Below are positions 2,756 through 63,599 of a DNA stretch of 64,000 bases, piece after piece (positions within the stretch are counted from its first letter, which is position 1; each line of letters starts with the position of its first letter). The DNA is taken from positions 109,308,001 to 109,372,000 of the forward strand of contig NC_086107.1 in NCBI RefSeq assembly GCF_963921235.1. The letters run 5' to 3'. The position numbers and the translations under genes are program-made. The DNA comes from Mobula hypostoma (taxonomy: Eukaryota). The notes under the pieces are model-generated. The model worked only from the letters and a program-made list of their open reading frames with translations. It was not told the DNA's origin and searched no databases.

Positions 2756-4301
2756 CTCCAAAAAGGACACTAGGCTCTACATAAGGTGGGTGATGGGAAA
2801 TAATGAAGTAGTGGTGGAGCTAGTGGGTGGAGGTGTTGATCAGCCTTACTGCTTGGGGAAAGGAACTGTTTTTGGATCTGGTGGTCCTGGCACGGATGCT
2901 CCGTAGCCTCCTCTCACGGTAGAGTAGCAGCTAGCGTGACTCTATTACAGCTCAGAATGTTCTGGAGTTTGGAGCCATTCCGTAAGGAGCCTCTGCACGT
3001 CTTCCCCGCAGAATGCACAGTTTTTCTCCGAGTCCTCTAATTTCCCTCCCACGGTCTGAAGACCTACCAGGAAGGCTAATTCCTCATTGTAGGTTGTCCT
3101 GTGATTAGGTTAAAGTTGGTCAATTGTGCTTGTCAGGGGTTGCTAGGGTGACCCGGCTCAAAGGACCTACTCCGCACAGTATTGTGAAATTAATTAATTA
3201 ATGACGGCAGTGGGACAAACGGTCCAGGAGCAGGGTGCGTGGGATCCTTCCTGATGTTACTGGCCCTTTTCCGTCACCTTTCTGTATAGATGTCCTTGAT
3301 AGCGGGTACGCTGGTACTGATGATGTGCTGGGCAGCTTCGACTACCGGTCGGGTTAATTGTCACTGACGTATGTTGTGACATGGCGTGGATGGATGGCCA
3401 CAGGACAAGCCCATGAGATCTTTGACATCCGCAGTCCAACTTCTAATCCTCAAGAAAGAGCCTCAAATTCTCCCTTTGAGCACACGTTGTCCAGAGTTGG
3501 GAGTTGAATCCACAAGGTTCATGACTGAGAGTCAGGGTGGAATTCATGGAGACAGAATTGACATTAAGGAACACCATTTCTTTGAACAAAAAAAAAATTA
3601 TTTATTTAAAAACACAGCATGGAGCAGGCATTTCTGGCTCAATGAGCCATGCTATCCAGCAACCCAGCAGTCCTGAAGATAGATCTCGGCCCAAAACATC
3701 GACTATCTGTCCTTTTCCACGGATGCTGCCTGGCCTGCTGAGTTCCTCCAGCATTTTGTGTGTTGCACTGGATTTCCAGCATCTGCAGATTTAACACCAG
3801 TCTAATCACAGGTCAATTTCCAATGACCAGTTAGCCCACTAATTTCAAGTTTAATTGTCATTCAACCATATATGAATACCAATGAACACTGCCAAACAAA
3901 ACACCGTTACTCCAGGACCAAGGTACAAAACCCAGTACCAACAGTCATGCACAACACAAAGCACACATAGCATATAGAAACATAGAAACATAGAAAATAG
4001 GTGCAGGAGTAGGCCATTCGGCCCTTCGAGCCTGCACCGCCATTTATTATGATCATGGCTGATCATCCAACTCAGAACCCTGCCCCAGCCTTCCCTCCAT
4101 ACCCCCTGATCCCCGTAGCCACAAGGGCCATATCTAACTCCCTCTTAAATATAGCCAATGAACTGGCCTCAACTGTTTACTGTGGCAGAGAATTCCACAG
4201 ATTCACCACTCTCTGTGTGAAGAAGTTTTTCCTAATCTCAGTCCTGCTATGAAATAGCAGTTTGTCTTTGGAATCTGGGGGGAAACCAGAGCACCTGGAG
4301 C

Positions 4302-4750
4302 ACCCTGATGGCATGAACATTGACTTCTCTAACTTCTGCTAATGCCTCACCTCCCCCTCGTACCCCATCCGTTATTTATTTATATACACACATTCTTTCT
4401 CTCTCTCTCTTCCCTTTTTCTCCCTCTGTCCCACTGACTATACCCCCCTTTTCCTTCTCCCTGGGCCTCCTGTCCCATGATCCTCTCATATCCCTTTTGC
4501 CAATCACCTGTCCAGCTCTTGGCTCCATCCCTCCCCCTCCTGTCTTCTCCTATCATTTTGGATCTCCCCCTCCCCCTCCCACTTTCAAATCTCTTACTAG
4601 CTCTTCCTTCAGTTAGTCCTGACGAAGGGTCTCGGCCCAAAACATCGACTGTACCTCTTCCTAGAGATGCTGCCTGGCCTGCTGCGTTCGCCAGCAATTT
4701 TGATGTGTGTTGCTTGAATTTCCAGCATCTGCAGAATTCCTCGTGTTTGC
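4302..4750 (+). mobile_element. Penelope-like element (PLE) family 1, 3' fragment
   Basis: Starts with 'PDGMNIDFSNF' coding end, then pyrimidine tract, mutated hammerhead (4615-4650) and family tail. Confidence 0.75.
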
Positions 4751-7204: not shown

Positions 7205-7483
7205 ACCACCTGAGTTTAAAGAATCTTTGCCTAAACGGAAAATTAAGGAACCACTGTGGAATATATATTGCTTTCCTTCTAATTCTTGCATCTTTTAGAT
7301 GATGATATTGAAAGTGTCCAACATATCTGTTTGAATTCTATGACTCTTAACACATACTTCAACTGTTTTCATGAAATGTTCTTGGTTTCATCATATTGGA
7401 ACAAGAGGCCAGAGTTTCTGTGAGATTGAGGAAGTGTGTATTCATTCTTAACAAGATGCAAAGCTACTGTAATGTCCCTGCAA

Positions 7484-7945
7484 TGCACACAAAATGCTGG
7501 TGAACGCAGCAGGCCAGGCAGCATCTATAGGATGAGGTACAGTCGACGTTTCAGGCTGAGACCCTTCGTCAGGACTAACTGAAGGAAGAGCTAGTAAGAG
7601 ATTTGAAAGTGGGAGGGGGAGGGGGAGATCCAAAATGATAGGAGAAGACAGGAGGGGGAGGGATGGAGCCAAGAGCTGGACAGGTGATTGGCAAAAGGGA
7701 TACAAGGCTGGAGAAGGGGGAGGATCATGGAACGGGATGCCTAGGGGGAAAGAAGTGGGGAGGGGAGCCCAGAGGAAGATAGAGAGCAGGCAAGGAGTGA
7801 TTGTGAGAGGGACAGAGAGAGAAAAAAGATAGAGAGTAAAGGGGGGGGGGAATAATAAATAAATGAATAAATAAATAAATAAGGGATGGGGTAAGAAGAA
7901 GAGGAGGGGCATTAACGGAAGTTAGAGAAATCAATGTTGAATGTC
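7484..7945 (-). mobile_element. PLE family 1 fragment
   Basis: Close reverse-complement match to 4302-4750; 'NIDFSNFR' end. Confidence 0.75.
7541..7576 (-). ncRNA. Minimal hammerhead motif (stem II with substitutions)
   Basis: Minus strand reads AGUC-CUGACGA-A-GGGUCUCAGCCU-GAAAC-GUC-GACU. Confidence 0.6.
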
Positions 7946-8888: not shown

Positions 8889-9515
8889 TGGTAATGTTAC
8901 AGCTACATAGGACCCTGGTCAGGCCCCTCTGGTAATGGTACAGCTATATAGCTATATAGGACCCTGGTCAGACCCCACTTGGAGTACTGTGCTCAGTTCT
9001 GGTCACCTCACTACAGGAAGAATGTGGAAACTATAGAAAGGTTGCAGAGGAGATTTACAAGGATGCTGCCTGGATTGGGGAGCATGCCTTATGAGAATAG
9101 GTTGAGTGAACTCGGCCCTTTCTCCCTGGAGCGACGGAGGATGAGAGGTGACCTGATAGAGGCGTATAAGATGATGAGAGGCATTGATCTTGTGGATAGT
9201 CAGAGGCTTTTTCCCAGGGCTGAAATGGCTAGCAAGAGAGGGCACAGTTTTAAGGTGCTTGGAAGTAGGTACAGAGGAGATGTCAGGAGCAAGTTTTTTA
9301 CGCAGAGAGTGGTGAGTGCGTGGAGTGGGCTGCCGGTGATGGTGGTGGAGGCGGATATGATAGGGTCTTTTAAGAGACTCCTGTACAGGTATATGGAGCT
9401 CAGAAAAATAGAGGGCTACGGGTAACCCTAGGTAATTTCTAAGGTAAGGACATGTTTGGCACAGCTTTGTGGGCTGAAGGACCTGTATTGTGCTGTAGGT
9501 TTTCTCTGTTTCTCT
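8889..9515 (+). mobile_element. CR1 LINE 3' fragment
   Basis: ORF 8979..9425 'EYCAQFWSPHY...RRMRGDLIE...FFTQRVV'. Confidence 0.9.
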
Positions 9516-12495
9516 ATTCCGTAATTCAGATTTTTGCTCTATTATTATGTATTACATTGAACTGCTGCCGCAGATACAACAAATTTCACGACATATACCG
9601 GTGATATTAAACCTGATTCTGATGCACAACAAGGTCTTTGAGAGGTTGTCTCTCTCTCTCTCTCTCTCTCTCTGACTTACAAAAAAGATCCCTTAGCCAT
9701 CAGCTGAAAGCAGAAAAGAGGCCCTTGGCCAGCACTTACTCTTCAGCCAAATGCAATTGTTATCACATTGCTTTTGTTTGAGTTCGCTGAGTACACATTG
9801 TGTTCGCAGAAGTGTCACCCCTTGCACAGTGGGAGGGCAGATCAATAACTTGATGTTACAGTCTGCAGTGTTGGCATCTATAGAAATGAATAGGTAGTCG
9901 AATTTTCGGGCCGAGACCCTTCTTCAGGACTGAGAAGGAAAGAGAAAGATGCCAGAGTAAAAAGGTGGAGTGGGGAAGTGAAAGGAAGATAGCTGGAAGG
10001 AGATGGGTGGGAAAGGTCAGGGACTGGAGAAGAAGGAATCTGATAGGAAAGGAGAGTGGACTATAGGAGAAAGGGAAGGAGGAGGGGGCGAAAGGGGAAA
10101 CAGTGGACAGGTGAGAAGAAGTAAAAGTTCAGCAAATGGGGGGGGGTGGAATTTACATAATAATTTTCACAAATTCCTGTCATCTCAGACCTACCACAGT
10201 GTGCACAGTATGCAATGCTATTACAGCTCGGGGGTGTCGGAGTCCCGCGCTCAGTCCTGGCGTCCTCTATAAGGAGCGTGTACGTCCTCCCCGTGGAACG
10301 CGTGCGTTTCCTCCGGTGCTGCAGTCCACTTCCCCCCCCCCCGCCCCACTCAGTTAGCGGTTGGTAGGCTAATTGGTCATTGTAAATTGTCCTGTGATTA
10401 GGCTCGGGTTAAGTAGGTGGGTTATGGGGCAACACGGCACAAAGGGCCAGAAGGGCCTGTTCAGCACTGAATCGCTAAAAAATTAAAAAATAAAATGTAT
10501 TTTAATTATTTTACATTTAGATACAGCCCTTCCAACCTTTGATCCGTGCCACCCAGCAAACTCCAATTTAACTCTAGCCATATTGACAGGACAATTTACA
10601 ATGACTGATTAACCTATCACCTGGACGTTTTTGGACTGTGGGAGGAAACCAGAGCACCCGGAGGAAACCCACGTGGTCATGGGGAGAACGTACAAACTCC
10701 TTACAGACAGTGGCGGGACTTGAACCCGGGCCGCTGGTACTGTAAAGCCCCGTGTTAACCACGACACTCCAGTCCATTTCATCTTCAAGTCTTCCCAATT
10801 TCAGCAGACCCATCTTCACCATTTTTTTTGAGATCATTGCCGGCAGAAGGATGTCTGGTGTGTGACAAAGTTGCTAAATGGCATCTTGGTGCGGTCACCA
10901 GCGACTTGAATCATATCCCTCCCAGCTCAGCCCTGTGAACTGTAGAACGCTGCTCTCACTATGACACGAGAGGAATCACTCCACTGCCTCTTGGTCTGAT
11001 GTGGTGCTTGACTCTGAGCCTGGAGTTTGTTCTGGGTGCAGAGGATCCCAAACGTTAAATGATTTCGGATGTCCCCAAAGTCCCTCCTTAATTAGCTTTC
11101 AGCCATTTTCACTGTCTATTGGCAGATCCCTAAATTTTCCCCACACAGCATATTCCAGACATCTTAGCTGCCCTTTCTTTTATCTGCGACATTCTCCCTC
11201 AGGGATTCAACAAGTTTCTGAAACAAAGTCAAACTCGACAGGGATACACAAATAATGTCTTCCTAAAGCACAGCTGCCTGTGCCTGACCCGTGTCCCTCT
11301 CTTCTCGCTCCTACCGTTGGGCGCAAGGTTCTGGAGCCCTGACCAGCTGCATTTGCCTCACTTTTGAGGTCTCTGCACTTCCTGCTCTGTGTGTTATTTG
11401 TTCATATCTTTATTGTTTGCACGATTCGTTTTATTTTGCAATTTGGATGTTTGACAGTCTTTGTAATGTGGGTTTTTTTATTTGATTCTGTTGCATTTTT
11501 TTCATAATCAGGTTTATCATCACCAGCATGTGTCATGAAATTTGTTAACTTAGCAGCAGCAGTTCAAAGCAATATGTAATATAGAAGAAAAAATACAAAA
11601 TAATAATAATTACAGTATATATATATAGAATAGATTAAAAATCGTGCAAAAAAAACCAGAAATATATATTTAAAAAGTGAGGTAGTCTCCAAGGGTTCAA
11701 TGTCCATTTAGGAATTGGATGGCAGAGGGGAAGAAGCTGTTCCTGAATCGCTGAGTGAGTGCCTTCAGGCTTCTGTACCTCCTACCTGATGGTAACAGTT
11801 GAGTGAAGGGCATGCCCTGGGCGCTGGAGGGTCCTTAATAATGGACGCTGCCTTTCTGAGACACCGCTCCCTGAAGATGTCCTAGGTACTTTGTACCCAA
11901 GATGGAGCCGACTAAATTTACAACCCTCTGCAGCTTCTTTCGGTCCTGTGCATTAGCCCCACACCCCCATACCAGACAGTGATGCAGCCTGTCAGAATGC
12001 TCTCCACGCTACATCTATAGAAGCTTTTGAGTGTATTTGTTGACATGCCAGATCTCTTCAAATTCCTAATGAAGTATAGACGCTGTCTTGCCTTCTTCAT
12101 AACTGCATTGATCTGTTGGGAGCAGATTAGATCCTCAGAGATCTTGACACCCAGGAACTTGGGACTGCTCACTCTCTCCTTGTGTAGCTGCATTCAAGAA
12201 GATGAATCTCAAGGTTGGATATGCTATACATACTTCGTTAATAAATGTACTTTGAAATTAACGTCAGGATCCTGGACAAGAGAAAATCTGCAGATGCTAG
12301 AACTCCGAGCAACACACACAAAATGCTGGAGGAACCCAGCAGGCCAGGCGGCATCCATGGAGAAAAGTACAGTCGACGTTTCAGCTTGTACTTTTATCGA
12401 CTGTACTTTATTCCCCATAGATGCTGCCTGGCCTGCTGAGTTCCTCCAGCATTGATTTTGTGTGCGCGTGTGCGCTTGTGTGTGTGCGCGTGCGC

Positions 12496-12547: not shown

Positions 12548-13449
12548 CAGGATCCTGGTACCAATCCCAACCATTTTCGAAGTTCAAAGTAAATTTATTT
12601 AAGTTCGAAGTACGCATATGTCACCATGTACTGTACTACCCTGAGATTCATTTTCTTGCCAGCATTCACAGGAAAAATAAATGAATAAAGTAGAATTTGT
12701 GAAAAACTATAAATAAGGAAGTCTGACGAACAACCAATGTGCAAAAGAAGACAAATCATGCAAATAATATAAACAACTAAAATACTGAGTTGTAGTAAGC
12801 CTAAAGGTTGTGGTATCAGTTTAACATTGAGGTGAGTGAAATTATCCAAGATGGTTCCTTGAACGGATTCCATGGTTGTCTTTTTTTCATGGCAGTCTGT
12901 GGAAAGATGAATCTCGGGGGTGTATATTGCATGCATGCTTTGATCCTGATGGTTGAGGGGTAGTAACTTTCCTGAACCCGGTGGAGTGGGACCTGAGGCT
13001 CCTGTAACGCCTGCCCGATGGCAGCGGCGAGAAGAGAACTTGGCTTGGATGGTGGGGGTCCTTGATGATGGATACTACTTTCTTGTGACAGCACCCCTTG
13101 TAAATTTGTTCAATGATGGGGAGGGATTATCTCCTGCTGAAGGATGGAACAGTTTGGCAGCACCCTAGACTGTAATTACGTTTATTTTCCATGCTGTTTT
13201 AGAGAGAGAAATTCTCTTTTTCTCCTGTCAATTTCTACAATATTATGCCGTAAAATCCACAGACTATTAAAATCAAGTTCTGAATTGAATGCTCTTAGTT
13301 ATTGTAACATCCCTATAGCAAGGAGCCCAGGACAGCCATTTGCTGTCGAGCAAACACAAGGAATTCTGCAGATGCTGGAAATTCAAGCAACACACATCAA
13401 AGTTGCTGGTGAAGGCAGCAGGCCAGGCAGCATCTCTAGGAAGAGGTAC

Positions 13450-13485
13450 AGTCGACGTTTCGGGCCGAGACCCTTCATCAGGACT
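13450..13485 (-). ncRNA. Minimal type-I hammerhead ribozyme motif in a Penelope-like repeat
   Basis: Minus strand reads AGUC-CUGAUGA-A-GGG(UCUCGG)CCC-GAAAC-GUC-GACU: core boxes, stem I (AGUC/GACU), stem II, GUC triplet. Confidence 0.75.
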
Positions 13486-14559
13486 TTGCTGTCAAGGTTG
13501 GGTAGATTTTTGCATAGCAGGGGAGTTGAGGGTTATGGGGAAAAGGCAGGTAGGTGGAGATGTGCCCACGGCCAGATCAGCCACGATCTTATTGAATGGT
13601 GGAGCAGGCTCGACGGGCCAGATGGCCGACTCCTGCTCCTATTTCTTGTGCTCTAACCATCTAACCTTAGGTTCACTACATCTTTCATGAGAGTCCACCA
13701 AGTTCACAGGAACCATCAACTGCACCAAACGTGTTTAATTCTCTCCGTGTTAACATCCGCTCCCTTCAGGTTCTCCCGCTCCTGGGCCGATTTACAGTGC
13801 GAGGTTAACCCGCTGCTCTGCACGTCTTTGGGAAGCAGGAGGAGACTGGAGCACTCCCGAGGTCGTGCAGACTCCGCATAGACAGCACGGGAGGAGAGGA
13901 TTGGAATCCTGTGACTCCGTTCCACAATCCATTCTCTTTCAGGGGAAGCACGGTAGCGTAGGGGTTAGCACAACGCTTTACAGTTCCAGCGACCCGGGTT
14001 CAATTCCCGCCACTGTCTGTAAGGAGTTTGTACGTTCTCCCTGTGACCACGTGGAGTGCCCCGGTTTCCTCACAGAGTCCAAATACATGCTGGTTGGTAG
14101 GTTAATTGATCATTGTAAATTGCCCCATGATTAGGCTGGGGTTAAGTCGGGGGATTGCTGGACAGCACGGCTCGGAGGGTCAGAAGGGCCTATTCAGCAC
14201 TGTATCTCAATAAATAATGTTGATTCTGAATATTGTCATTGGATACCAAAACAATGCAGTGTGATTTCCTCGTGATATCAGACCAAACCTCAACTGAATT
14301 GAAATCCAGACAGATTTGTCTGTTTACTCTGGAAGTTTGGAAGCTGAGGAAAGAATTTTTGTAAGTGACTTAAATAGGGTAGACAATCAAATCAGAGTCT
14401 ACTTCTAGAGGGGGAGAGGGGGATAACTTAAAGGAGATGTGAGGGACATTATTTTTTTACACAGATCGTAGTGGGTGCCTGGTGGAGGCGAACACGATAA
14501 CATTGGGATTGGTTTACTTTTGGCACTGAGGAGTGCGGTAAAACAACGGGACTTGAGAA

Positions 14560-15235
14560 CACAGGGTCCATAATTCACTGAAAGTGGCATCACAAGTAGA
14601 TGGGGTCGTGAAGAAAGCTTTTGGCACATTGGCCTTCATAAGTCAAAGTACTGATTGCAGGAGATGGGATGTTATGCTGAAGTTGTATGAAAAGTTGGTG
14701 AGGCCTAATTTGGAGTATTGTGTACAGTTTTGGTCTCCTACCTACAGGAAAGATGTGCAGAGAAAATTTACAAGGGTGTTACCAGCTCTAGATGACCTGA
14801 GTTATAAGGAAAGATTGAATAGGTTAGGACTTTGTTCCTTGGAATTTAGAAGATTAAGAGGAGGTTTGGTAGAAGTATGTAAAACTATGAGCAGTATAGA
14901 TAGGTTAAGTGTAAGCAGGCTTTTTCCACTGTGGTTGGGTGGGACTACAACCAGAGGTCATGGGTTAAGGGTGAAAAGTGAAAAAAGTTTAAGGGGAACA
15001 TGGAGGGGAAACTTCTTCACTCACAGGGTCATGAGAGTGTGGAATCAGTTGCCAGCACAAGTGGTGGATGCCATTTGGATTTGAATGTTTAAGAGAAGTT
15101 TGGATGGGTACATGGATGGTAGAGGTGCAGAGGACTACGGTCCTGGTGCAGGTCGATGGGAGTAGGCAGTTCAAAGGGGTTGGCATGGACTAGATGGGCC
15201 GAAGAGCCTGTTTCTGTGCTGTACTTTTCTATGAG
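14560..15235 (+). mobile_element. CR1 LINE 3' fragment
   Basis: ORF 14584..15084 'LVRPNLEYCVQFWSP...TRGHGL...FFTHRV'. Confidence 0.9.
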
Positions 15236-18200: not shown

Positions 18201-18947
18201 CAATTCAGTTCAGTTTCTCTCACAAACCCCTAACTTTGACATGGTGACCCTGGGTTCGTGACATCCCAGCCAGGAGAAATTTATTTTATTCTGAGCTGTA
18301 GTGCGGAACAGGCCCCTCCGGCCAAAGAGCCACGCTACCCAGCAGCCCACCTACTTAACCCCAGCCTAATCGCGGGACAATTTACAATGACAGATTAACC
18401 TACTAGCTGTACATCTTTGGACTGTGGGAGGAAACCAGGGCACCCAGGAGTAAACCCACACGGAGAGCGTCCAAACCCTTTACAGACAGAAGGGGTGATA
18501 GCACTTTGAACTCCGCCACCCCAAGCCATAATAACATCACGCCAACCACAGCTCTACTGTGATGCCCCTGCCTTCCTTGCATTTACCCCGCCAAGCCCTG
18601 TAAGGATTTTGTATGTTCCAATGAAAGGTGGAAAGTATAATCGGTTTAACCTCGTTCCTACTGGGTCTTACACAGTGGATTATATCATGTTCTGTCACTT
18701 CTGGTGTTTGGTTTTAAGCAAAACTCAAACTATGTCATGAGAACCAACAGCACAAGGGAGAGGAAACAGTCCTTTACTCTCAGCAACACACGCAAAACGC
18801 TGGAGGAACTCAGCAGGCCAGGCAGCTTCTATGGAAAAGAGTACGGTCGATGTTTCGACCCGTAATTCCAGCTTGGATTTCCAGCATCTGCAGATTTTCT
18901 CTTGTTTGTGATTCAGTCCATTACTCTACAGGCTTTGTACCTCATTC

Positions 18948-19628: not shown

Positions 19629-20266
19629 TTCCTGTTCACTAACTTTCATTCTTTCTGGCCATCCATACACTTTATAAGGTGCTGGTCAGATTGCACTTGA
19701 GCAATTTTGAAGCCCATATCTAAGAAAAGATATGCTGGCCCTGACGAGGGTCTAGATAAGGTTCACAAGAACGATCCCAGAAACAAAAGGTTTGATGTGT
19801 GAGGAGCCTTTAATGTCTGTAGGCTTGGATGGGTGGGTGGACTGGATCTTTTTAAAACCTACAGGGTACTGAAAGGCCTGCATAAAGCGGACGTGGAGAG
19901 GCTGTTTCCATTAGTAGAAGGGCCAAAGTAAAGGGATCCCTTTAGAATGGAGATGAGGATGAGTTTTTACAGCCAGCGGATGGCGAATCTGAACCTGTGG
20001 AATTTGTTGTCACAGCGGGCTGTGGAAGCCAAGTTACTGGGTGTTGTAGGAGCCATGTATCTGTTCTCTATCTGCATTGTAGTCTATGTTGTGTGTTTAT
20101 GTTTATTATGGTAATTAGTCACGTGGGTGGGGCGTGGTAGAGGCAAAGAGTTTTAGTTACTTATTCATACTTGTGTCTTTAGTTCAGTTTGAGTTAGAGA
20201 CAGCCGGAAATGACATCTTTTATGTTGACCACTTAACTTTGCTCAAAACCACTTGATTACGTTTTA

Positions 20267-20862
20267 AGCAACACACATAAAAGTTGCTGGTGAATGCAAC
20301 AGGCCAGGCAGCATCTCTAGGAAGAGGTACAGTCGACGTTTCGGGCCGAGACCCTTCGTCAGGACTAACTGAAAGAAGAGATAGTAAGAGATTTGAAAGT
20401 GGGAGGGGGAGATCCAAAATGATAGGAGAAGACAGGAGGGGGAGGGATGGAGCCAAGAGCTGGACAGGTGATTGGCAAAGGGGATACGAGAGGATCATGG
20501 GACAGGAGGCCTAGGGAGAAAGAAAAGGGGGGGGGAACCAGAGGATGGGCAAGGGGTATAGTCAGAGGGACAGAGGGAGAAAAAGGAGAGAGAGAAAAAG
20601 AATGTGTGTATATAAATAAATAACAGATGGGGTACAAGGGGGAGGTGGGGCATTAGCGGAAGTTTGAGAATTCAATGTTCATGCCATCAGGTTGGAGGCT
20701 ACCCAGACAGAATACGAGGTGTTGTTCCTCCAACCTGAGTGTGGCTTCATCTTTACAGTAGAGGAGGCCATGGATAGACATATCAGAATGGGAATGGGAC
20801 GTGGAATTAAAATGTGTGGCCACTGGGAGATCCTGCTTTCTCTGGCGGACAGAGCGTAGGTT
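20267..20862 (-). mobile_element. PLE family 1 fragment with GIY-YIG endonuclease C-terminus
   Basis: ORF 20653..20880 'DLPVATHFNSTSHSHSDMSIHGLLYC...RLEEQHLVFCLGSLQPDGMNIEFSNFR', followed by hammerhead. Confidence 0.8.
20331..20366 (-). ncRNA. Minimal hammerhead ribozyme motif in a Penelope-like repeat
   Basis: Minus strand reads AGUC-CUGACGA-A-GGGUCUCGGCCC-GAAAC-GUC-GACU. Confidence 0.75.
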
Positions 20863-26500: not shown

Positions 26501-28658
26501 GACCTGCTCTATCCATGCCTTCCAATATTAGTCATATTTCAATGAGATCCTCCCTCATTCTTCTAAACTCCAGCAAGTATACAAAATTCTGAGGGGTATA
26601 GCTAGGGTAAATGCAAGCAGGCTTTTTCCACTGAGGTTGGGTGGGACTACAACCAGAGGTCACGGGTTAAGGGTGAAAGGTGAGAAGTTTAAGTTGACCA
26701 TAAGGGGAAACTTCTTCACTCAGAGGGTGGTGAGAGTGTGGAACGAGCTGCCAGTACGGGTGGTGCACTCGAGCTTGATTTCAATGTTTGAATAGTTTGG
26801 ATAGGTACATGGATGGGGGGGGGGGCGCACGGGTATGGAGAGCTTTGGTTCTGGTGCAGGTTAATGGGAGTAGGCAGTTTAATGATGGGTTTGCCATGGA
26901 CTAGATGGGCCGAATGGTGTATTTCCATGTTGTACTTCTCTCTGACTCTACAGGCCCAGGTTTTCCATCCCCAGGTTTTTTTTTAAAGACTCCAAGGAGG
27001 AGCGAAAGCTTGTCCCTTCAGGATAGTTTATTTGATGTTCAAAGAGAAAAACAGGTACCAAACACATGAAACTAAAGAGAAGAAACTTAAGACAAAGACA
27101 AGATGGCAGTTTTTGCAGAGACTGACACTTTTATACAGAGCCAAGGCAAATTCCTGAGATAAGCAAAAGGCCAATGAAAAGACACACAGTCACAGCAAGT
27201 GTCTCATGTGCCAACCCTTCAAAAGGTGATAAACCGTTTTGTAACTGCTATACCACGTTATCACCAGTAGGTGGAGACAAACACCACAAGTTGTGAAAAC
27301 TATTAAGAATGTTAGTAAACTGCAGTTCCAATTTAAATTATTAATTCAACTAATACCTTTTTGAAAGTATGAAAAAAACTGATTCCAACAATGGAGAATA
27401 CATAGGAACAGACTCAACAATTATCAACAGAACAAGGAGATCAGGGAAGGCCATTTAACGGATGTTGAGCAGGGACATTTAGGGTATTACACCTGAGTGA
27501 GTTTGAGAAGCTGCAGGAAAGAGGCTTCAGAGATGACTTGTAGTCCTGGTGGTGATGGACTTGTAGCATCTCCCCGATGGCAATTTTGTGAATAGGTGAC
27601 TGCTAAGGGTAGAAGCCAGAATAAGAAGGTGAGACCAAGGCTTCTTCCCCCTTCCCTTCCAGTCGTGATGAAGGGTCTCATCCCGAAACGCCAGCTGCTT
27701 ATTCCCCTCCAAAGGTACTGCCTGACTTGCTGAGTTCCTCCAGCATTTTGCCTGTGTTGCTCTGGATTTCCAGCATCCGTAGAACCCCTTGTGTCTTCGA
27801 GACTGGCAAATAATCAATGTGCATAAGACGACAAACTATGCAAATGAAAATAATACTGCAAAGATGTGTTGTAAAGAGTCACTGAGAGTGAGAACGAACT
27901 GTATCTGCTGTAAATACCTATTCCCAGTCCCAATGGAGAGCTGTCAACTTGAAATGTGATTGTTTTCCCCATCCCCAGAAGCTGCCTGCCATGCTAAGAA
28001 TTAATCCCCTCCTTGACCTTGCCTGTATTCACACCCTGGCGTACATGTTTCCACTATCCCTACCAGCCTCTACTTTACCCTTCAGTTCACCTTCTCTTCC
28101 CTTGGGTGGAGCTGCCACCTTTAAGATTTTAAAGAAAAGGTCAATGTTATTGTATGTCAAAACATGCAGCGAACGGTGTCCCAGACTGTACTTGTCCTAA
28201 CCCGTAACCTATGGAATTGCAACGCCGTGCTGGGAGGCAGCCCGCAAGTGTCGCCGTGCTCCTGGCGTTCCCGCGACGGACTAACCCAGACCTGGACATC
28301 TCTTGCAATGCGGGAGGAAACCCACGCGGTCACGCGGAGAACAGCAGCGGGTGTCCGCTGACTGTGTGGACTTCGCATGTCTTCCCGGGGGGGTTTTCCT
28401 CCGGTTTCTTCCGCATTTCAAAGACAGAGAAATTGGTGAGTGACTGTAAATCGCCTCTGTTGTGTAGACGAGTGGCAGTGTCTGGAGGGAAGTTGACAAA
28501 AGCATGGGGAGAATAAGATGGGCGAGGATACACTCGGCATAAAAATGAGTGCATCTCCCTACGCCTGTTATTCACTGTTTAGGTGTGTATCGTTCCGAGG
28601 CTCCTGAAGTCCTACTTGGTACACTGTGACTACCCACTCCCTCCCCGCCATCACCTTG

Positions 28659-32959: not shown

Positions 32960-33530
32960 GTGCAACACACGCAAAATGCTGGAGGAACTCAGCAGGTCAG
33001 GCAGTATCCGTGGGGGAAAATAGTACAGTCAACCTTTTTGGGCCGAGGCCCTTGGGTAGGACTGGAGAACAACAGGGTGAGGAGTAGATTTAAACGGTGG
33101 GGAAGGGGAGCGAGAAACACAGGGTGACAGGTGAAACCTGAAGGGCGGGGATGAAGGAAAGGGCTGGGAAGTTGATTGGTGAGAGAGACAGAAGGCCATG
33201 GAAGGAAGAAAAGGGGAGGGAGCAAGGAGCACCAGAGGGAGGCGATGGGCAGGAGAGGAGATGAGGTGAGAGAAGGAAAAGGGATGGGAAACCGTGAAGG
33301 TGGGCGGAGTTGGGGGGCATTACCGGAAGTTTGAGAAATCGATGTTCATGCCATCAGGTTGGAGGCTACCCAAACAGGATATAAGCTGTTGTTCCTCCAA
33401 CCTGAGTGTGGCTTGATCACAACAGTAGAGGAGGCCATGGATGGACATATCGGAATAGGATTGGGAAGTGGAATTAAAATGGGTGGCCACTGGGAGGTCC
33501 CTTTTTTCTGGAGGACGGAGCGTAGATGCT
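32960..33530 (-). mobile_element. PLE family 1 fragment
   Basis: ORF 33320..33580 encodes the same GIY-YIG C-terminus; same tail. Confidence 0.75.
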
Positions 33531-33659
33531 CGTCTGGTGGCGTGGAGGGACAACACCTTGTATTCTGTTAACCAGTGCAAAGTGCTTAGTCACCCTAGCT
33601 CGATATATGTCCAAGACTTTTGCACAGTACTGTATATATTTTTTATTTTTATCTATTGG

Positions 33660-33905: not shown

Positions 33906-34039
33906 CCCGATAATATAATCATAATATATAGTAATTTTTATTGCAATGTATTGCAATACACTGCTGCTGCAATGAAATCATTTAACGACTTATGCTAAAG
34001 GTATTAAACCTGACTCGGATTCTCAATGTTCAGTCCGCT

Positions 34040-40095: not shown

Positions 40096-40389
40096 GGTAT
40101 GTTTGAAAATTGAAATAATATCAGAAAATGCTGGGGATGCTCAAACAAAAGGTCATAGACTTGAAGAATTAACTCAGCTTCTCTCTCTACAGATGCTGCC
40201 TGACCATCTGAACACTCAAATCATTTTGATTTCAAATGTCCTTATAATGTCAGATAATTTATAATTGACTCACAAGTAACTTTATTTATTTATTTAATGT
40301 TACCATTAGCATGCCGGGAAGCTCTCTTGCCTTGAAGTCAGAATATTGTAAGTTCAAATCCCAGTACAGCAACATTGGTTTAAATATCT

Positions 40390-41140
40390 CCCTCCTCACT
40401 AAAAGTGCTACATCTGTCCGTAAGCCTCCTCCCTCACCTCCATTCAGAGCCCCAAACTGTCCTTACAGGTGAGGCAACACTTCACCTGTGAATTCACTGG
40501 TGTTGTCTATTGTGTCCAGTGCTCCCAATGTGGCCTCTCTACATTGGTGAGACCTGTCATAAATTGAGGTGTCGCTTCAAGCACCATTCACCATATCCAC
40601 CACAAACGAGACTTCCTGATGGCCAAACATTCCAATTCCATTTCCCATTCCAGTTCTGACATTTTGCTCGATGGTCTTCTCTTTTGGCAAGATGAGGCCA
40701 CACTCAGGTTGGAGGAGCAACATCTTATATTCCATCTGGGTAGCCTCCATCCTGATGGCATGAACATCGACTTCTCTTGGTTTAAAAAATAAAGTTTCCA
40801 CCTCGCCCCTTCCGCTCTCTGGCCTCTTATCTCTTCTCACCTACCTATCACCTCCCCCTGAGTCCCCTCCTCCTTCCCTTTCTCCTGTGGTCCACTCTCC
40901 TCTCCTATCAGATTTCTTCCTCTCCAGCCCTTTTACCTGTCCAGCCCACCCTGACTTCACCCATCACCTTCTAACTTTCCTCCTTACCCTGCTGCCCCCT
41001 CCCACCTTTTCATTCTGGCATCATCCCCTCCCCTTCTCAGTCATGAAGAAGAGTCTCGGCTCAAATCGTCGACAGGTTATTCATCTCCATAGATGCTGCC
41101 TGACCTGCTGAGTCCCTCCAGCATTTTGTGTGTGTTGCTT
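40390..41140 (+). mobile_element. PLE family 1 fragment including frameshifted GIY-YIG motifs
   Basis: Reads 'FTCEFTGVVYCVQCSQCG / YIGET ... PDGMNIDFS', then degenerate hammerhead at ~41039-41073. Confidence 0.75.
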
Positions 41141-42444
41141 TGGGGAGACCGATTTAATTCCTTACAAATATTGACGTATAATGCCTATTTCTTAATGTTA
41201 TTTGGTCGTTGTCAATCTGTCGTTAGCAGGATCTTGCTGTGTGTAAGTTTGATGGTTGTAGTTCCCATGAGTCTCACATCAATAGTACTTCCTTCTTATT
41301 TCTTTTTCTTTATTCCACTCACCCTGCTCATGGAGGAGGCTACATAGCATTCACTCCAGGACCACCAGACTCAAAACCAGTTCCTTTCCCCAAGCAGTGA
41401 GGCTGATCAACACCTCCACCCACTGACTCCACCACTACTTTATTATTTCCTGTCGGTCACCTTATGTACAGCCCACTGTCACTCTATGGACACACAATCA
41501 ATCTATGTATGTAAGCTATCTTATGTATTTATATTTACTGTTTTTTTTTCATTATTATTGTGTTCTTTATCGTGTGTGTGTGTGTGTGTGTGTGTGTTTT
41601 TGTTTTGTGCTGCACCAGATCCAAAGTAACAATTATTAGATTAGATTATGAGGACACTCAGTCCTCGTTTATTGTCATTTAGAAATGCATGCATTAAAAA
41701 ATGATACCATGTTCCTCCAGGCTGATATCACAGAAACACAGGACACACCAAGACTAAACCTGACAAAACCACATAATTATAACATATAGTTACAACAGTG
41801 CAAAGCAATACCGTAATTTGATAAAGAGCAGACCATGGGCACGGTAAAAAAAAAAGTCTCAAAGTCCCGATAGCCTCATCATCTCACACAGACGATAGAA
41901 GGGAGAAACTCCCTACCATGAACCTCCAAGCGCAGCAAACTTGCCGATGCAGCACCATTGGAAGCCCGACTGCGGCGGACTCTGAGTCCGTCCGAAAACT
42001 TGGAGCCTCCGACCAGCGCCTCCGACACAGCCTCTCCGAGCACCATCCTCTGCCGAGCGCTTTGACCCCGCCCCGGCTGCCAAGCAACACTTGCGTGCAG
42101 GAAATAACACTGAACAATCTTGAAACTTTAGAGACGTGCCACTGTAACGACGAGGCCACGCCATCCAATTACACCCATGACCAATTAACCTACTATCCGT
42201 TACGTCTTTGGACTGTGGGAGGAAACCGGAGCACCCGGAGGAAACCCACGCGGTCACTGGGAGATTCTACATTCTTCTTACAACGCACACAAAATATTGG
42301 AGGAACCCGAACATTTTTTTCAGTGTTGTCTTAGATTTCCAGCATCTGCAAAATGTCCTTGTTCCTATGATTTGAAATTCCACAACAGACAGTGGCGGGA
42401 ATTGAACTAGCTCGCCGGCGCCGTGATAGCGCTATCTAGCAGTG

Positions 42445-46834: not shown

Positions 46835-47312
46835 GAGAGCAAGAGATTTTGCAGATGCTGGAAATCCAGAGCAACACACACAATATGCCGGAGGAACTCA
46901 GCTGGCCTCCTGGATGAACATTACTTTCTCTAACTTCCAGTAATTTCTCCCCTTTTCTCTTTTGTTTTTCATTCCCCCTTCTGGTTCTCTGCTCATCCCT
47001 TCTCCTCACCTCACCTCCCCTGGGTCCCCTCCTCCTTCCCTTTCTCCCATGGTCTACTCTCCTCTCCCATCAGATTCCCTCTTCTCCAGCCCCTTTCCTC
47101 TTCAAATTATCACCTCCCCAGCTACTCACTTCTTCCACCGCTCTCCCAGCCACCCACCTTTCCCCTCACCTGGCTTCTCCTCCCCCGCTTCTTAATCTGG
47201 CTTTTTACCCCTTTCCTTTCCAGTCCTGATGAAGGGTCTCCGCCCGAAATATTGACTGTTTATTACTCTCCATAGACGCTGCCTGACCTGCTGAGTTCCT
47301 CCAGCATTTTGT
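46835..47312 (+). mobile_element. PLE family 1 fragment preceded by an inverted copy of its tail
   Basis: Inverted tail 46835-46905, then sense body with hammerhead 47222-47257. Confidence 0.65.
47222..47257 (+). ncRNA. Sense-strand hammerhead motif variant
   Basis: AGUC-CUGAUGA-A-GGG(UCUCCG)CCC-GAAAU-AUU-GACU. Confidence 0.5.
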
Positions 47313-57694: not shown

Positions 57695-58394
57695 GTAAGG
57701 CCACCCGGGAGAATGGTGAGGGTTGGCGGTTACTCACTTCTGTACGACGATGCCCCGCGCCATGCCCCATCCCGCCCCGCCCTTGGCCAAGAACTGAGTC
57801 GGGGCACAGTGGCCGCTTGATGTATAAAGTGTAAAGAATGAGGAGATAACCAGCTCGGTACTGGGCAAGTGAGCAGAGGCTCAGTGGGTTTAATGGATCG
57901 TCTTAATGTGGTGAGGCGGAAGGGGGGACGTACACGGGCTGGATAGGCAGAAATTCCTGATGTAGACCAGGAGCAACAGGACAGAGAAAGGCCCTTCTGC
58001 CCAATATCCATTCTGACTTACTTATACTTAGCATACATTATCCTGTCCTCTTTCAATTCTTCTTTCATCATCTCTCCCCCTTCCACCTGGCTTCACCTAT
58101 CACCTTCTAGTTTGTACTCCTTTTCCACTCTCCCCCACGTTCTTATTCTGATGTCTTCCCCTTTCCTTTCATGTCTTGATGAAGGGTCTCTGGCCAAAAC
58201 ATCACATCTTGATTCCTCTCCATAGATGCTGCCTGACCTGCTGAGTTCCCCCAGGATTTTGTGTGTGTTCATCTGGGCTTCCAGCATCTGTAGAACCTCC
58301 TTGCCCTCCTTGTATTTATCTTTTAAGTTCTCCCCACATTCTCATCAACACCCACTGGATTCCACCACTCACCTGCGTTCAGGGTGCTTTACAG

Positions 58395-58703: not shown

Positions 58704-60070
58704 TTACAGCGGCCAAGAAGGCTTGGGGGTTTGATGTTTTTGTTGCTGTCTGCACGATTTGTTTTTGCGCAGGTAGGGGTTAGGGTTGGATGTTCTTGTT
58801 GTCTGCACGATTTGTTTTTTGTGTGGGGGGAATTATGTTTTTCTTTGTATGGCTTCCGTGGTTTTCTTTGTTCCGTGGCTGTCTGGAGAAGATGAATCTC
58901 AGAGTTGTATACTGCATGCACACTCCACATAGACAGCACCAAAGATCAGGATTGAACCCGATTCTCAGGCGCACTGAGGCAGGCTCTACCAGCTGTGCCC
59001 TTGTATTAGACAGAGCCCCCCCCCCCATAATGCTGACGACAGAGCGGGGTGGCGAACCTTGGTGAGATCGTGCGCCCAAATTGGCGATGATCGAAAGTTC
59101 TCTTGTATTCTATGGTAATTATCCAAAGAGATTATCGTTGATTAGTGAATAAGTAATTATAATTAAAATAATGAATCTTGGGTCTTATTCATTGTTTAAT
59201 ATGAATAAAACTATTACAGAGACCGATTGAAATAAAATCAAGTGTTTTAGAGAACATTTTCAAAGATTACTAATATTAATCTTTGAAAAAGAGAATGGAA
59301 AAATAACATAATTTTTAAATCACAAACACGAGATCTGCAGATTTGCTGGAAATCCAAAGCAACACACACACAGCAGGCCAGGCAGCATCTATGGAAAAGA
59401 GCAAACAGTGGATGTTTCTGTTCAGGGTCCTTGTTCAGGAACGAGAAAAGGGTCTCACCCTGAAATGTTGACTATTTACACTTTTCCATATTGGCTGCCT
59501 GGCCTCCTGAGTTCCTCCAGCATTTTGTGTGTATAATTTTTAAATAGCAATCCAGGTGCAATTCAATGCTACTAGGCAGAATAATAGTTCAGCATTGACT
59601 AGATGGGCTGAAGGGCCTGTTTTGTGCTTATGTCACTCTATGACTCTATGTTTCTATTGTTTTAGTCATCATCCTTTAAGTACCATGTTGCATGATGTGG
59701 GTGATCATGGTCTACGTGACCATGATTGTTCTTGGCAAATTTTTCTACAAAATTGATTTGTCATCGCCTTCTTCTGGACAGCATCTTTACAAGATGGGTG
59801 ACTGCCAGCTATTATCAATACTCTTCAGAGATTGTCTGCCTGGCGTCAGTGGTCGCTTAACCAGGACTTGTGATATGCACCAGCTGATCATACGACCATC
59901 CACCACCTGCTCCCATGGTTTCATGTGACCCTGATCAGGGGGGCTAAGCAAGTGCTACACCTTGTCCAAGGGTGACCTGCAGGCTAGCGGAGGGAAGGAG
60001 CAGTCTTACACCTCCTTTGGTAGAGACGTATCTCCACCCTGCCACCCAGTTTACATGTAAAATTGTTATT

Positions 60071-60489: not shown

Positions 60490-61250
60490 TCGTAAACACA
60501 AGATGCTGGAAATCTTGAGGAACGCACACAAAATGGTGGAGAGATTCGGTTGGTCAGGCAGCATCCATGGTGGGAATAAAGAGTCAATGTTTCGGGCTGA
60601 GACCCTTCATCAGGGCAGTTAGCACAACGCTTTACGGTACAGGCGGCCCAGGTTCAATACCCACCGCTGCCTGTAAGGAGTTTGTACGTTCTCCCCATGA
60701 CCACGTAGGTTTCCTCCAGGTGTTTTGGTTTTGCCCTCACGGTTCAAAGACCTACCGGTTGACAGGTTAATTGGTCATTGTCCCGTGATTAGGCTAGGAT
60801 TAAATCAGGAGATTGGCTCGAAGGGCCAGAAAGGCTTATCTCAATAAATAAATCAGGACTGGAAAGGAAGGGAGGAGCCAGAGTAAGAAGGCGGGGGGAA
60901 GATAAGGCAGGTGATAGGTGAGGCCAGGTGAGGGGGAGGGTGGATGAAGTAAGAACTGGGGCGGGGGGTGTGATGGGTAGAAGAGGTAAAGGGCTGAAGA
61001 AGAAGGAATTGGATAGGAGAGGAGAGTGGACCATGGGAGAAAGGGAAGGAGGAGAGGCACCAGAGGGAGGTGAGGAGAAGAGAAAGGCAAGAGGGGAGCC
61101 AGAATGAGAAATGGGAAAAGAGAGAAGGGGAAGTTACCAGGAGTTAGTGGAAGTTAGAGAAATCAATATTCATACCATCAGGTTGGAGGCTAATCAAGCA
61201 GAATATGAGGTGTTGCTTCATTGTGACTTTGGCATCACTGTGGCAGTAGA
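60490..61250 (-). mobile_element. PLE family 1 fragment interrupted by a V-SINE (~60615-60852)
   Basis: ORF 61144..61356 ends 'SLQPDGMNIDFSNFH'; ATCAGG duplicated around the SINE at the hammerhead edge. Confidence 0.7.
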
Positions 61251-61707: not shown

Positions 61708-63599
61708 GTAGGTTAAAGGTCAGGTAAGAGGTCGCTTTCAAGGACTCTTTACAACTTGTGTTCTCAGTATTGAGTTTTTTCACAATTTATCTTCTTTTCC
61801 TCATTGGTTGTTTGTCGGTATCTGAATCTTCTTTGTAAAATTTTGTTGTATTTCTTTTTTCCTGTAAATGCCTGCAAGGAAAAGGAATCTTTTATGAGGT
61901 AATATATGGTGATATATACATATACTTCTAACTTTTTGCGAAGTGTGTCTTGCATCTATTATAATACATCGCAGACACATCCCTCCCCACTGTCAGGCAC
62001 TGCCTCATGGAGGCAACGTCTATCATCAAAGATACCCATCACCTAAGCTGTTCCATCATCTCACAGCTAACACTGGACAGGAGGTACAGAGGTGCAAAGT
62101 CCCACACGCCACCAGGTTCAAGGACAGCTACTGCCCTTCATCCATTCTGTCCTTGAACCTACCTGCGCCCTGACCAGTACTTCAGCATAGCAGCACTATA
62201 AACACTTTGCTTCTTTTTTGAGGGAAATGGGTTGTTTCTCATCAAAAGTTCGTATCTTCTTCTTCCTTAAGCCCACCGCGCCTACGGTGGCATAGGCCGC
62301 CGAGAGCAGCTCACCAGAGCCCTCCGTCCTAGGCCGAAGGTTGATCAGCCCTCTGGCTTCTGCTTTCACCGCACAACCTCCCACGTCTTCTAGGCGAAGG
62401 TCCTTCCTCTTCCAGGAATGAGGTCTTTGGAGCTCCTGTTGGTGTTTCTGCAGCACAAACACGAGGGAATCTGCAGACGCTGGAAATCCGAGCAAAATGC
62501 TCAGAATGCTGGAGGAACTCGGCAGGCAGGCAGCATCTGTGGAAACAACTACAACCAGTCCTGCTGGAGGGTTTTTCAGCCAGAAATGTCGACTACTTTT
62601 TTCCATAGACGCTCCCTGGCCTGCCCAGTTCCTCCAGCATCTTGTGTGTGTTGCTCGGTGTTTCTGTAGCTCTTGAGTTTTTACTTGATGGGATTGCTAG
62701 CCCCATGCCCAACCCTCCTCTTTTCACAGCCGGGCTTAGGGCTGTCCATGGCAGAGTTAAACACTTTGTAGAGTTTATCTTTAATTTATGTTTTTCTTGT
62801 AAATGTTGCATATCTGATGCTATTTGCCTGTGATACTTCTCTAAGTAAGTTTCTTATTACATCTGTGCGCACACGTATATGACAATAAACTCCACTTTGA
62901 CTTCGGTCACAGCAAGCATTCTAAGACAGACGATTGCCTATTGTCTCCTGTTTCCATAGGTCAGTAAGTTGTTTTGTATCACTTTGTCCTGAGAGTAGAA
63001 AGATATGATTATGAGGACACGCAGTCCCCTTTTATTGTCATTTAGTAATGCATGCATTAAGAAATGATAAAAATGTTACCATGGCATCTGACATAAAACA
63101 ATAATATGGCATCTGGTTGATCAGAAATCCTGACAGTCCAGTATCTGACTCATTCATTGGTCCAGAATGAGCCTGGGGTCAAAGTGCAGTTGGGTGGAAT
63201 AGCTGCAGCCAGGGTACAGATTGTGGGTTGGGGTCCAGATACCAAGGCTCAGGTACCTGGGTTAATTTTCCAGATAGCTTGTGTCCTTCCTGCTCCCTTT
63301 ATGTTCACTATACTACTGTATTGTGTAGCATTTCATTACTTTTTTAAAATTATTTTACTTTGTTAAGATACAGCATTGTCCTTTGAGCTACACCATACAG
63401 CAATCCCCTAACTTAACCCTAGCCTAATCACAGGGCAATTATCAATGACCAATTAACCTACCAACCGGTACATCTTTGGACTGCTCTCCACAGTCCGTCT
63501 GTAGAGGATCCAATTGCAGAGGGAGGTGCAGAGGCCGGGATTTTGAAGCTGGTTGATGAGTACTGAGGATCTGACACTTGTGTTTTCCTCATTTCCCAG

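What the first reader, a model, noticed from the sequence alone, without database searches (positions are those of the whole stretch)
13450..13485. Dispersed minimal hammerhead ribozymes carried by an abundant Penelope-like repeat family
Seen: the commonest unexplained repeat contains the 36-nt motif AGUC-CUGA(U/C)GA-A-GGG(UCUCGG)CCC-GAAAC-GUC-GACU. It is intact at 13450-13485 and 20331-20366 (both minus strand) and variably decayed at ~3668, 4615, 7541, 9896, 27661, 41039, 47222, 58172, 60582 and 62556. It has both hammerhead core boxes, stem I (AGUC/GACU), stem II and a GUC triplet (predicted cut between 13454 and 13453), but stem III is only AC/GU with no loop. In the longer copies it lies just downstream of a GIY-YIG endonuclease C-terminus. 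Known: Penelope-like elements carry minimal hammerheads with reduced stem III that cleave better as dimers. Inference: this genome holds a very high-copy ribozyme-bearing retroelement family, about a dozen motifs in 64 kb.
Basis: partly seen in the sequence, partly recalled or inferred. Interest (0 to 1): 0.72.

Follow-up and report, generated by a model that had tools for sequence, protein, structure and literature searches.

The report
Minimal hammerheads in ray Penelope repeats
The 36-base motif is the small, already described self-cleaving-RNA (hammerhead) motif that Penelope-like jumping genes carry near their ends, here scattered in large numbers, mostly as truncated relics, through what looks like a ray genome.

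Summary
Observation confirmed. The motif is intact at 13450-13485 and 20331-20366 (minus strand), and all ten other listed sites are real. A family-independent hammerhead descriptor finds 5 loci against 0 in each of 30 shuffles. The motif fits the published minimal hammerhead (min-HHR) consensus of Penelope-like elements (PLEs; Cervera & de la Pena 2014). The carrier is a Neptune/Nematis-type PLE: the upstream fragment hits ray proteins with RT, CX3-4CxxC linker and GIY-YIG motifs. Six head-to-head inverted pairs each carry the ~30-nt PLE 'tail' on one arm only. Between two subfamilies the motif is 80% identical, against 41% in both immediate flanks. Covariation is not significant, cleavage is untested, and no tandem pair exists here. 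Corrections: stem II is 4 bp; three 'decayed' copies keep core and stems; the headline copy is a solitary 137-bp insertion with no endonuclease upstream. Window density extrapolates to several hundred thousand motifs per genome. This scan reported the same kind of motif at four other places in this genome and in three windows of other (shark-like) genomes. Verdict: correct, a new member of a known kind; only the host lineage and abundance stand out.

The parts
13450..13485 (-). Intact minimal type-I hammerhead motif (predicted cut 13454/13453)
13349..13485 (-). Whole solitary insertion (~137 bp): hammerhead, conserved block and ~30-nt tail extension; begins at stem I, no endonuclease remnant
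13485..13493 (-). Left copy of a 9-bp direct repeat (probable target-site duplication; its last A is the first base of stem I)
13339..13347 (-). Right copy of the 9-bp direct repeat
20331..20366 (-). Intact minimal hammerhead motif (predicted cut 20335/20334)
20262..20330 (-). Downstream block of the 20366 copy, ending at the short terminus (no tail extension)
20367..20652 (-). Pyrimidine-rich 3' UTR / pLTR between the ORF stop and the hammerhead
20656..20862 (-). C-terminal ~69 aa of the PLE GIY-YIG endonuclease (84% identical to ray protein P0002)
7541..7576 (-). Hammerhead with intact core and stems (G10.1-U11.1 wobble); element 7478-7938 includes the last residues of the ORF
9896..9931 (-). 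Hammerhead with intact core; 15.2-16.2 = A-U
47222..47257 (+). Hammerhead with intact core; 15.2-16.2 = U-A, position 17 = U; element 46911-47312, with an inverted tail copy at 46840-46907(-)
4615..4650 (+). Hammerhead copy with G12A (CpG decay); element 4301-4750 includes the ORF end
3669..3704 (+). Decayed hammerhead (G12A, stem II broken); short insertion 3668-3790 starting at stem I, inside a SINE-like repeat
27661..27696 (+). Decayed hammerhead (C3G, U16.1C); short inverted UTR piece at its 5' end
33028..33063 (-). Decayed hammerhead (core broken, 1-nt insertion)
33323..33508 (-). Endonuclease C-terminus of the 33063 copy, preceded by a short inverted piece (33543-33568)
40403..40789 (+). 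Longest ORF remnant: second half of the linker CxxC, VVYC..C..C and frameshifted YIGET of the GIY-YIG domain
41039..41074 (+). Decayed hammerhead (C3A, G12A, A15.1U)
58172..58207 (+). Decayed hammerhead (C3U, G12A, stem I lost)
60582..60614 (-). 3' part of a hammerhead split by a ~240-bp SINE-like insertion (CCTGAT duplicated); core letters intact, stem I and 15.2-16.2 broken
60852..60860 (-). 5' part (stem I strand and core start) of the split hammerhead; endonuclease end at 61150-61251
62458..62663 (.). Head-to-head inverted pair: decayed hammerhead 62556-62593(+) and a tail copy on (-) with extension; junction at the AGTC/GACT of stem I
59322..59534 (.). Head-to-head inverted pair with two decayed or truncated hammerheads; extension on the (-) arm only
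12279..12466 (.). Head-to-head inverted pair truncated inside the hammerhead (+20 and +28); extension on the (-) arm only
18772..18903 (.). Head-to-head inverted pair: (-) arm truncated at +18, (+) arm is the extension only
42262..42357 (.). Head-to-head inverted pair of tail-only pieces; extension on the (+) arm only

Best explanation
The motif is a minimal type-I hammerhead (min-HHR) in the pseudo-LTR of a Neptune/Nematis-type Penelope-like retrotransposon that has amplified enormously in a myliobatiform-ray-like genome. Shown: the anatomy (ORF end, ~250-335 nt UTR, hammerhead, ~70-nt conserved block, optional ~30-nt tail). Inferred mechanism: reverse transcription starts internally about 105 or 135 nt past the motif start and usually stops early, so nearly every insertion is a short 3' piece that carries the motif passively. 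In full-length tandem source elements two motifs on one transcript can pair through the ACGU palindrome to build helix III, probably helped by the element's protein, and cut after GUC to process the multimeric RNA. A lone copy prefers an inactive fold in which the core (GAYG) pairs with CGUC. Dispersed copies are then knocked out quickly by CpG deamination, which hits catalytic G12 and the helix III pair.
For: Match to the min-HHR consensus 'NNN CUGANGAH G..C GAAA N palindrome U H NNN'; the Acropora Neptune example has the same C G U C. Descriptor: 5 loci against 0 in each of 30 shuffles. Endonuclease fragment: 10 hits among 17 candidates, all named from Mobula, Hypanus or Hemitrygon, best E 1e-31. 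In 5 of 5 examined hits the RT YIDD-like, CX3-4CxxC and VVYC..C..C..YIGET motifs are present. Pfam GIY-YIG hits 4 of 6 at E 5e-4 to 2e-3, below the curated cut-off; a more distant hit, P0094, has both RVT_1 and GIY-YIG. 6 of 6 inverted pairs carry the tail on one arm only, the PLE signature described by Craig et al. and explained by two RT start sites in Frangieh et al.. Subfamily A versus B identity is 0.805 in the motif, 0.409 and 0.407 in the adjacent flanks and 0.649 in the tail block. CpG positions differ in 27 of 99 cells against 23 of 281 elsewhere, p 7e-6, and 20 of the 27 are transitions. G12A in 4 of 12 copies. The monomer MFE is the core-sequestered rod, 2.2 and 4.2 kcal/mol below the open-core fold for the two headline copies.
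Against: No cleavage data. Covariation is not above shuffles (136/500 for % paired, 50/500 for the covariation score). Core versus non-core decay is not significant (10/121 vs 40/259, p 0.07). Folding z-scores are unremarkable (-1.2 to +0.2). The helix III duplex is weak (-1.7 kcal/mol), and the computed dimer MFE is an extended duplex, not the active dimer. Rfam finds no hammerhead even at E<=10. The window has no PLE RT remnant, no full element and no head-to-tail tandem. No loose end at the cut site appears among those listed (15 shown, 1400 hidden; contigs cannot show RNA ends). In the Anolis element HHR mutants did not affect insertion in vitro and no RNA-seq reads ended at the cut site.
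Confidence: 0.85

Rival explanations
1. Same element and same fold, but cleavage is not what is selected. The motif is kept as a structural or protein-binding signal (or overlaps a promoter or ORF start), and cleavage is negligible in vivo.
For: PAc HHR mutants insert normally in vitro and no RNA ends map to the cut (PMC11167929). Naiads proliferate without HHRs. Only 1 of 9 Xenopus dimer constructs cleaved. Here all tailed copies were made from RNA uncut at the 3' motif, and at most 1 of 23 5' ends (62538) could sit at the cut site.
Against: The conserved island is exactly the ribozyme (stem I edge to stem I edge), with every catalytic base kept in the youngest copies. PAc's HHR does cleave with protein, and min-HHR dimers cleave weakly.
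Confidence: 0.25
2. The short hammerhead-plus-tail units (~120-140 bp, starting at stem I) are a separately amplified non-autonomous SINE-like or retrozyme-monomer family rather than random 5' truncations.
For: 3 of 23 5' ends lie within 2 nt of the first stem I base, and 8 of 23 lie between -13 and +28, against 2 of 23 in the next 87 nt upstream. The 13485 copy has a clean 9-bp duplication. The most-supported X1 loose end is at 20366 (858 contigs, agreement 0.37).
Against: The three copies belong to different subfamilies and have different 3' ends. The loose-end consensus reads like subfamily-B UTR, so it is largely explained by subfamily divergence. 5' ends are spread from -640 to +97. RT pausing at a stable hairpin explains the cluster. 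Numbers are small and untested statistically.
Confidence: 0.1
3. The 13450 copy has been co-opted by the host as a functional ribozyme.
For: It is intact, solitary and cleanly inserted.
Against: It is 95% identical to the 20366 copy over 104 nt, i.e. simply young. No host gene context was identified. A monomer is predicted to misfold.
Confidence: 0.02
4. Chance resemblance of a repeat to the hammerhead core.
For: No Rfam hit; no significant covariation.
Against: All 11 core bases, NUH, both stems, the extra base, G10.1-C11.1 and the palindrome match, at the position known for PLEs; 0 descriptor hits in 30 shuffles.
Confidence: 0.02

Closest known systems
Minimal hammerheads (min-HHR) in the pLTRs of metazoan PLEs (Cervera & de la Pena 2014, PMC4209133)
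   Same: Type I; CUGANGA-H; G10.1-C11.1; GAAA-C-G-U-C with no loop 3; helix I of 4-5 bp; downstream of the RT-EN ORF; mostly single truncated copies. The Acropora Neptune, fugu Xena and Xenopus examples share 'C G U C'.
   Different: Host: no cartilaginous fish in Table S1 or the Fig. S3 alignment. Helix II is at the short end (4 bp). Density is about 5 descriptor-passing motifs per 64 kb, against ~4,000 (coelacanth) and ~9,000 (Xenopus tropicalis) per genome in that paper (different descriptor).
Neptune/Nematis clade of C-terminal EN+ PLEs (as described in Craig et al., bioRxiv 10.1101/2021.04.23.441226)
   Same: CX2-5CxxC linker before GIY-YIG, two cysteines between GIY and YIG, inverted 5'-truncated copies, 30-40 bp tail on one end only.
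   Different: Clade not fixed by an RT tree; the window holds only endonuclease ends, so RT and linker come from ray homologues.
PAc, Poseidon element of Anolis (Frangieh et al. 2024, PMC11167929)
   Same: HHR in the pLTR, two 3' termini about 30-40 nt apart downstream of it.
   Different: The Poseidon clade lacks the linker Zn finger. PAc has been tested in vitro (protein-assisted cleavage); this family has not.
Animal non-LTR retrozymes (Li et al., bioRxiv 10.64898/2026.07.22.740005)
   Same: Type I HHR derived from PLE pLTRs; reported in the one chondrichthyan sampled.
   Different: Defined by head-to-tail tandem units with at least two HHRs; none occurs in this window.

Membership tests
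min-HHR of PLEs | Core boxes CUGANGA and GAAA, with NUH triplet | tested here: met
   6 of 12 full-length ungapped copies keep all 11 core bases; 5 pass the full descriptor
min-HHR of PLEs | Unpaired base between A9 and G10.1; G10.1-C11.1 pair | tested here: met
   H = A in 11 of 12, G10.1 in 11 of 12; feature list
min-HHR of PLEs | Palindromic 15.2-16.2, helix III minimal or absent | tested here: met
   CG in 5, AU in 1, UA in 1, CA (CpG decay) in 5 of 12
min-HHR of PLEs | Helix I of 4-5 bp and helix II | tested here: met
   81.7% and 89.6% of cells paired over 12 copies, against 12-44% for the whole structure when slid
min-HHR of PLEs | Covariation across family members | tested here: inconclusive
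   3 double-sided cells; 140/500 shuffles as high; only 12 closely related copies
min-HHR of PLEs | Located in the pLTR 3' of an RT-EN ORF | tested here: met
   6 copies have an endonuclease end upstream by tblastn; 47222 has the last codons by blastn
min-HHR of PLEs | Self-cleavage as a dimer or with protein | not testable with these tools
   needs in vitro transcription; contigs cannot show RNA ends
Penelope-like element (C-terminal EN+) | Single ORF with RT then GIY-YIG | tested here: met
   in ray homologues 76-92% identical over the fragment; the window itself has endonuclease only
Penelope-like element (C-terminal EN+) | Two Cys between GIY and YIG (CCHH motif) | tested here: met
   VVYCVQCSQC..YIGET at 40490-40555, frameshifted; 5 of 5 homologues
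Penelope-like element (C-terminal EN+) | Inverted 5'-truncated copies with a 30-40 bp tail on one end only | tested here: met
   6 of 6 inverted pairs; 59390 was called from its alignment, since the script's motif test missed it
Penelope-like element (C-terminal EN+) | Full-length copy flanked by two pLTRs in partial tandem | tested here: inconclusive
   none in 64 kb; no whole genome is held
Neptune/Nematis clades | CX2-5CxxC linker upstream of GIY-YIG | tested here: met
   5 of 5 homologues; second CxxC at window 40403
Neptune (as opposed to Nematis) | RT phylogeny | not tested
   no reference PLE RT set among the fetched sequences
Non-LTR retrozyme | Head-to-tail tandem units with at least two HHRs | tested here: not met
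   all copies are solitary or head-to-head; one X1 contig shows a 39-nt go-back joint across the motif
Rfam hammerhead families | Covariance-model match | tested here: not met
   0 hammerhead families among 17 matches at E<=10

The most novel reading that the evidence does not exclude
In this ray lineage the ~140-bp hammerhead-plus-tail unit has become a mobile unit of its own, and with 10^5 or more core-intact copies, many inside introns and UTRs, two motifs on one long host transcript (or in trans) can pair through the ACGU palindrome and cut host RNA. That would make a retroelement ribozyme a genome-wide influence on RNA processing, held in check by CpG decay of G12.
Probability: 0.07. Interest if true: 0.7.

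Novelty: new member of a known kind. Interest (0 to 1): 0.22.

Why it matters
The motif-element link is ten years old, so the finding adds a host lineage and a scale. If the density holds genome-wide, this ray carries one to two orders of magnitude more min-HHR motifs than the vertebrate maxima in the 2014 survey. That gives a large natural mutation series with which to ask the open question of what PLE hammerheads do: intron strand bias, depletion of close same-strand pairs, and 5'-end profiles could show whether cleavage matters in vivo. It also tells annotators that these repeats, whose endonuclease end appears inside several ray gene models, are PLE debris.

Tried and rejected
No whole genome is held, so there is no direct genome-wide count or consensus. 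Rfam at E<=10: no hammerhead among 17 weak matches. Pfam on 6 window fragments: no GIY-YIG hit; the assignment rests on homologues. PDB sequence search with P0003: 0 hits. Raw-read runs X21 (20 low-complexity reads) and X22 (0 reads) do not hold the element and are no test. The per-position variant table showed 40 rows and hid 60; only 1 shown row lies in the motif (20343, the C11.1 CpG, 49% and 60% of depth), which I do not count as a conservation test. The ratio of summed depth at the motif to the unique flank (13.5 million to 8.3) is not a copy number, as the tool states. Possible older-subfamily stem II variants at 35918 and 40180 are too decayed to use. The first per-position tally had a tied consensus at 16.2 and was redone against the 20366 copy. 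ARAGORN found 0 tRNAs. The Lunse et al. paper on dimer cleavage is not held.

Full report
Observation. The two named copies are exactly where stated and differ only at N7. In standard numbering they read stem I AGUC, core CUGAYGA, an extra A, stem II GGGU-CUCG-GCCC, GAAA, C15.2-G16.2, U16.1-C17, stem I GACU. The predicted cut lies between 13454 and 13453. All ten further sites are real: nine by an ungapped scan (14 hits) and 62556 by nhmmer. The core pattern occurs 12 times against 1.62 expected. A descriptor using only core boxes and pairing finds 5 loci (7576, 9931, 13485, 20366, 47222), all in this family, and none in 30 dinucleotide shuffles. Of 12 ungapped full-length copies, 6 keep all 11 core bases; one of these (60617) has lost stem I to a SINE-like insertion. 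Rfam does not recognise the motif.

The carrier. The 67-aa frame upstream of the 20366 copy hit 10 proteins among 17 candidates, all named from Mobula hypostoma, Hypanus sabinus or Hemitrygon akajei, at up to 92% identity. The window is therefore most likely from a myliobatiform ray (inference). The five longest PLE-like hits contain an RT motif of the YIDD type, a CX3-4CxxC linker and VVYC..C..C..YIGET. Pfam GIY-YIG matches 4 of 6 hits just below its cut-off, and a more distant relative has both RVT_1 and GIY-YIG. By the passages read in Craig et al., that linker marks the Neptune and Nematis clades; I did not build an RT tree. tblastn maps six endonuclease ends in the window (4301, 7938, 20877, 33508, 40403, 61251) and no PLE RT. 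Each lies roughly 250-335 nt upstream of a motif. Element pieces cover about 5.6 kb, 8.8% of the window, by approximate intervals.

Insertion anatomy. Copies end either about 105 or about 135 nt after the motif start. Six head-to-head inverted pairs (12384/12396, 18862/18874, 42306/42310, 46907/46911, 59440/59448, 62577/62552) each carry the extra ~30 nt on exactly one arm. This is the PLE 'tail' signature, which Frangieh et al. trace to two internal RT start sites. The headline copy is a 137-bp solitary insertion that begins at the first base of stem I and is flanked by a 9-bp direct repeat; it has no endonuclease upstream. Of 23 pieces, 8 have 5' ends between -13 and +28 relative to the motif start, 3 of them within 2 nt of stem I, against 2 in the next 87 nt upstream. 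At most one could start at the cut site. This suggests that RT stalls or switches template at the fold, but the numbers are small and I did not test them.

Conservation. Comparing 3 young (A) with 5 older (B) copies, identity is 0.805 in the 36-nt motif, 0.409 in the 36 nt upstream, 0.407 in the 15 nt downstream and 0.649 in the next block. Consensus differences are 3 of 36, 21 of 36, 10 of 17 and 9 of 36. The B copies were first found by motif similarity, but 4 of the 5 are also found by the tail anchor alone and 2 by tblastn, which limits that bias. In organism A's contigs, two of the six best-supported loose-end positions are the two edges of the motif (858 and 623 contigs in X1; 96 and 79 in X12). 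Against this, stem covariation is no better than shuffled, and core bases are not significantly spared after insertion (p 0.07), as expected for neutrally decaying copies. Decay is CpG-driven: 27 of 99 cells at CpG positions against 23 of 281 elsewhere (p 7e-6), with G12A in 4 of 12 copies.

Abundance. 215,569 contigs of DNA run X1 (which may be the source of this window) and 10,882 of run X12 (RNA is a guess) lie on a 661-bp stretch; summed depth is about three times higher at the motif than over the endonuclease end. Sixteen of 24 listed runs, from five organism codes, hold half or more of the sampled words. Extrapolating 12 full-length and 5 descriptor-passing motifs per 64 kb to the 2.76 Gb of X1 contigs gives roughly 500,000 and 200,000 (inference from one window; the second figure could be 70,000-500,000 on Poisson error alone). 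An earlier unchecked note of this scan gives tens of thousands intact and about half a million decayed.

Mechanism. Shown: anatomy, family, truncation pattern, decay. Computed: the lone motif prefers a rod in which the core pairs with CGUC, 2.2 and 4.2 kcal/mol below the open-core fold for the two headline copies; the ACGU self-duplex is only -1.7 kcal/mol, and the dimer MFE is not the active dimer. From the literature: min-HHR monomers do not cleave and dimers cleave weakly; the Anolis motif cleaves only with protein and is dispensable for insertion in vitro; 1 of 9 Xenopus dimers cleaved. Inferred: cleavage, if any, happens in tandem source transcripts, and dispersed copies are passengers. 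I put 0.85 on the identification with this general model. About one chance in four remains that cleavage is not the selected function.

Comparison with what is known. The motif fits the Fig. S3 consensus of Cervera & de la Pena, including the extra base, G10.1-C11.1 and the 15.2-16.2 palindrome. Their Table S1 and Fig. S3 list no cartilaginous fish. Four searches listed 1, 4, 3 and 6 papers, none of which by title or abstract start describes a ray or shark PLE hammerhead; the library lacks most subscription papers, Repbase and Dfam. Li et al. 2026 report HHR retrozymes in the one chondrichthyan they sampled; their supplements were not available and may already list this family. Penelope elements were detected in all vertebrates surveyed by Chalopin et al., a set that includes the elephant shark. 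This scan noted the same kind of motif at four other places in this genome and in three windows of other genomes.

Papers seen: PMC4209133, parts 1-2 of 4 of the text and parts 1-2 of 3 of the supplementary PDF; PMC11167929, parts 1-2 of 4; bioRxiv 10.64898/2026.07.22.740005, parts 1-3 of 5; bioRxiv 10.1101/2021.04.23.441226, PMC6765202 and PMC4350176, passages only; Lunse et al. (RNA Biol), not seen, known only from its title and citation in PMC6765202. Hammerhead numbering, the catalytic role of G12 and the labels 'SINE-like' and 'LINE-like' are from my own knowledge.

Verdict. A correct catch and a correct reading, but a new member of a known kind. Interest 0.22.

Noticed in passing
window 60609-60860 (-): A ~240-bp SINE-like repeat is inserted inside a hammerhead core, duplicating CCTGAT; conversely the 3669 element sits inside a copy of the same repeat, so the two families were active in overlapping periods.
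   Followed up: partly
window 62556-62559: The junction of an inverted pair falls on stem I: AGTC of the plus copy doubles as GACT, the predicted post-cleavage 5' end, of the minus copy. It may be template switching through stem I complementarity; the next ~10 nt align poorly.
   Followed up: partly
window 35918-35983, 40150-40224, 27924-27995, 51996-52043 (+): Older, heavily decayed relatives of the tail; two suggest a different stem II (AGGTC..GACYT) and an AACT stem I strand, i.e. a third subfamily.
   Followed up: partly
run X1 laid on window 20328-20366: One contig shows a 39-nt go-back joint spanning the motif (depth 53), a possible direct tandem of two hammerheads elsewhere in the genome.
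   Followed up: no
proteins P0003, P0006, P0008, P0009, P0010, P0016, P0033, P0036: The element's endonuclease end appears inside annotated host proteins (DIPK1C, ATP synthase c, VKORC1L1, ABHD14A, LAMP3 isoforms; an unnamed GPCR, NYAP and RecQ5): exonisation or gene-model error.
   Followed up: no
window 37047-37109 (-), 58396-58458 (+), ~38990-39030: tRNA-like heads of another SINE-like family (Rfam tRNA 27-29 bits, just under threshold); ARAGORN finds no true tRNA.
   Followed up: partly
window 8952-9425, 14557-15084, 47818-48189, 51570-51872, 17403-17789, 33986-34468: LINE-like RT 3' fragments (RVT_1 E 1e-3 at 51573; ALKBH8_N E 5e-8 at 33986); the 13485 element sits next to a LINE-like 3' end.
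   Followed up: partly
window ~54030-54110 (-): A short frame reading VYKTQCSIYYVGQTGRNL, possibly a remnant of a second, unrelated (Poseidon-like) GIY-YIG element.
   Followed up: no
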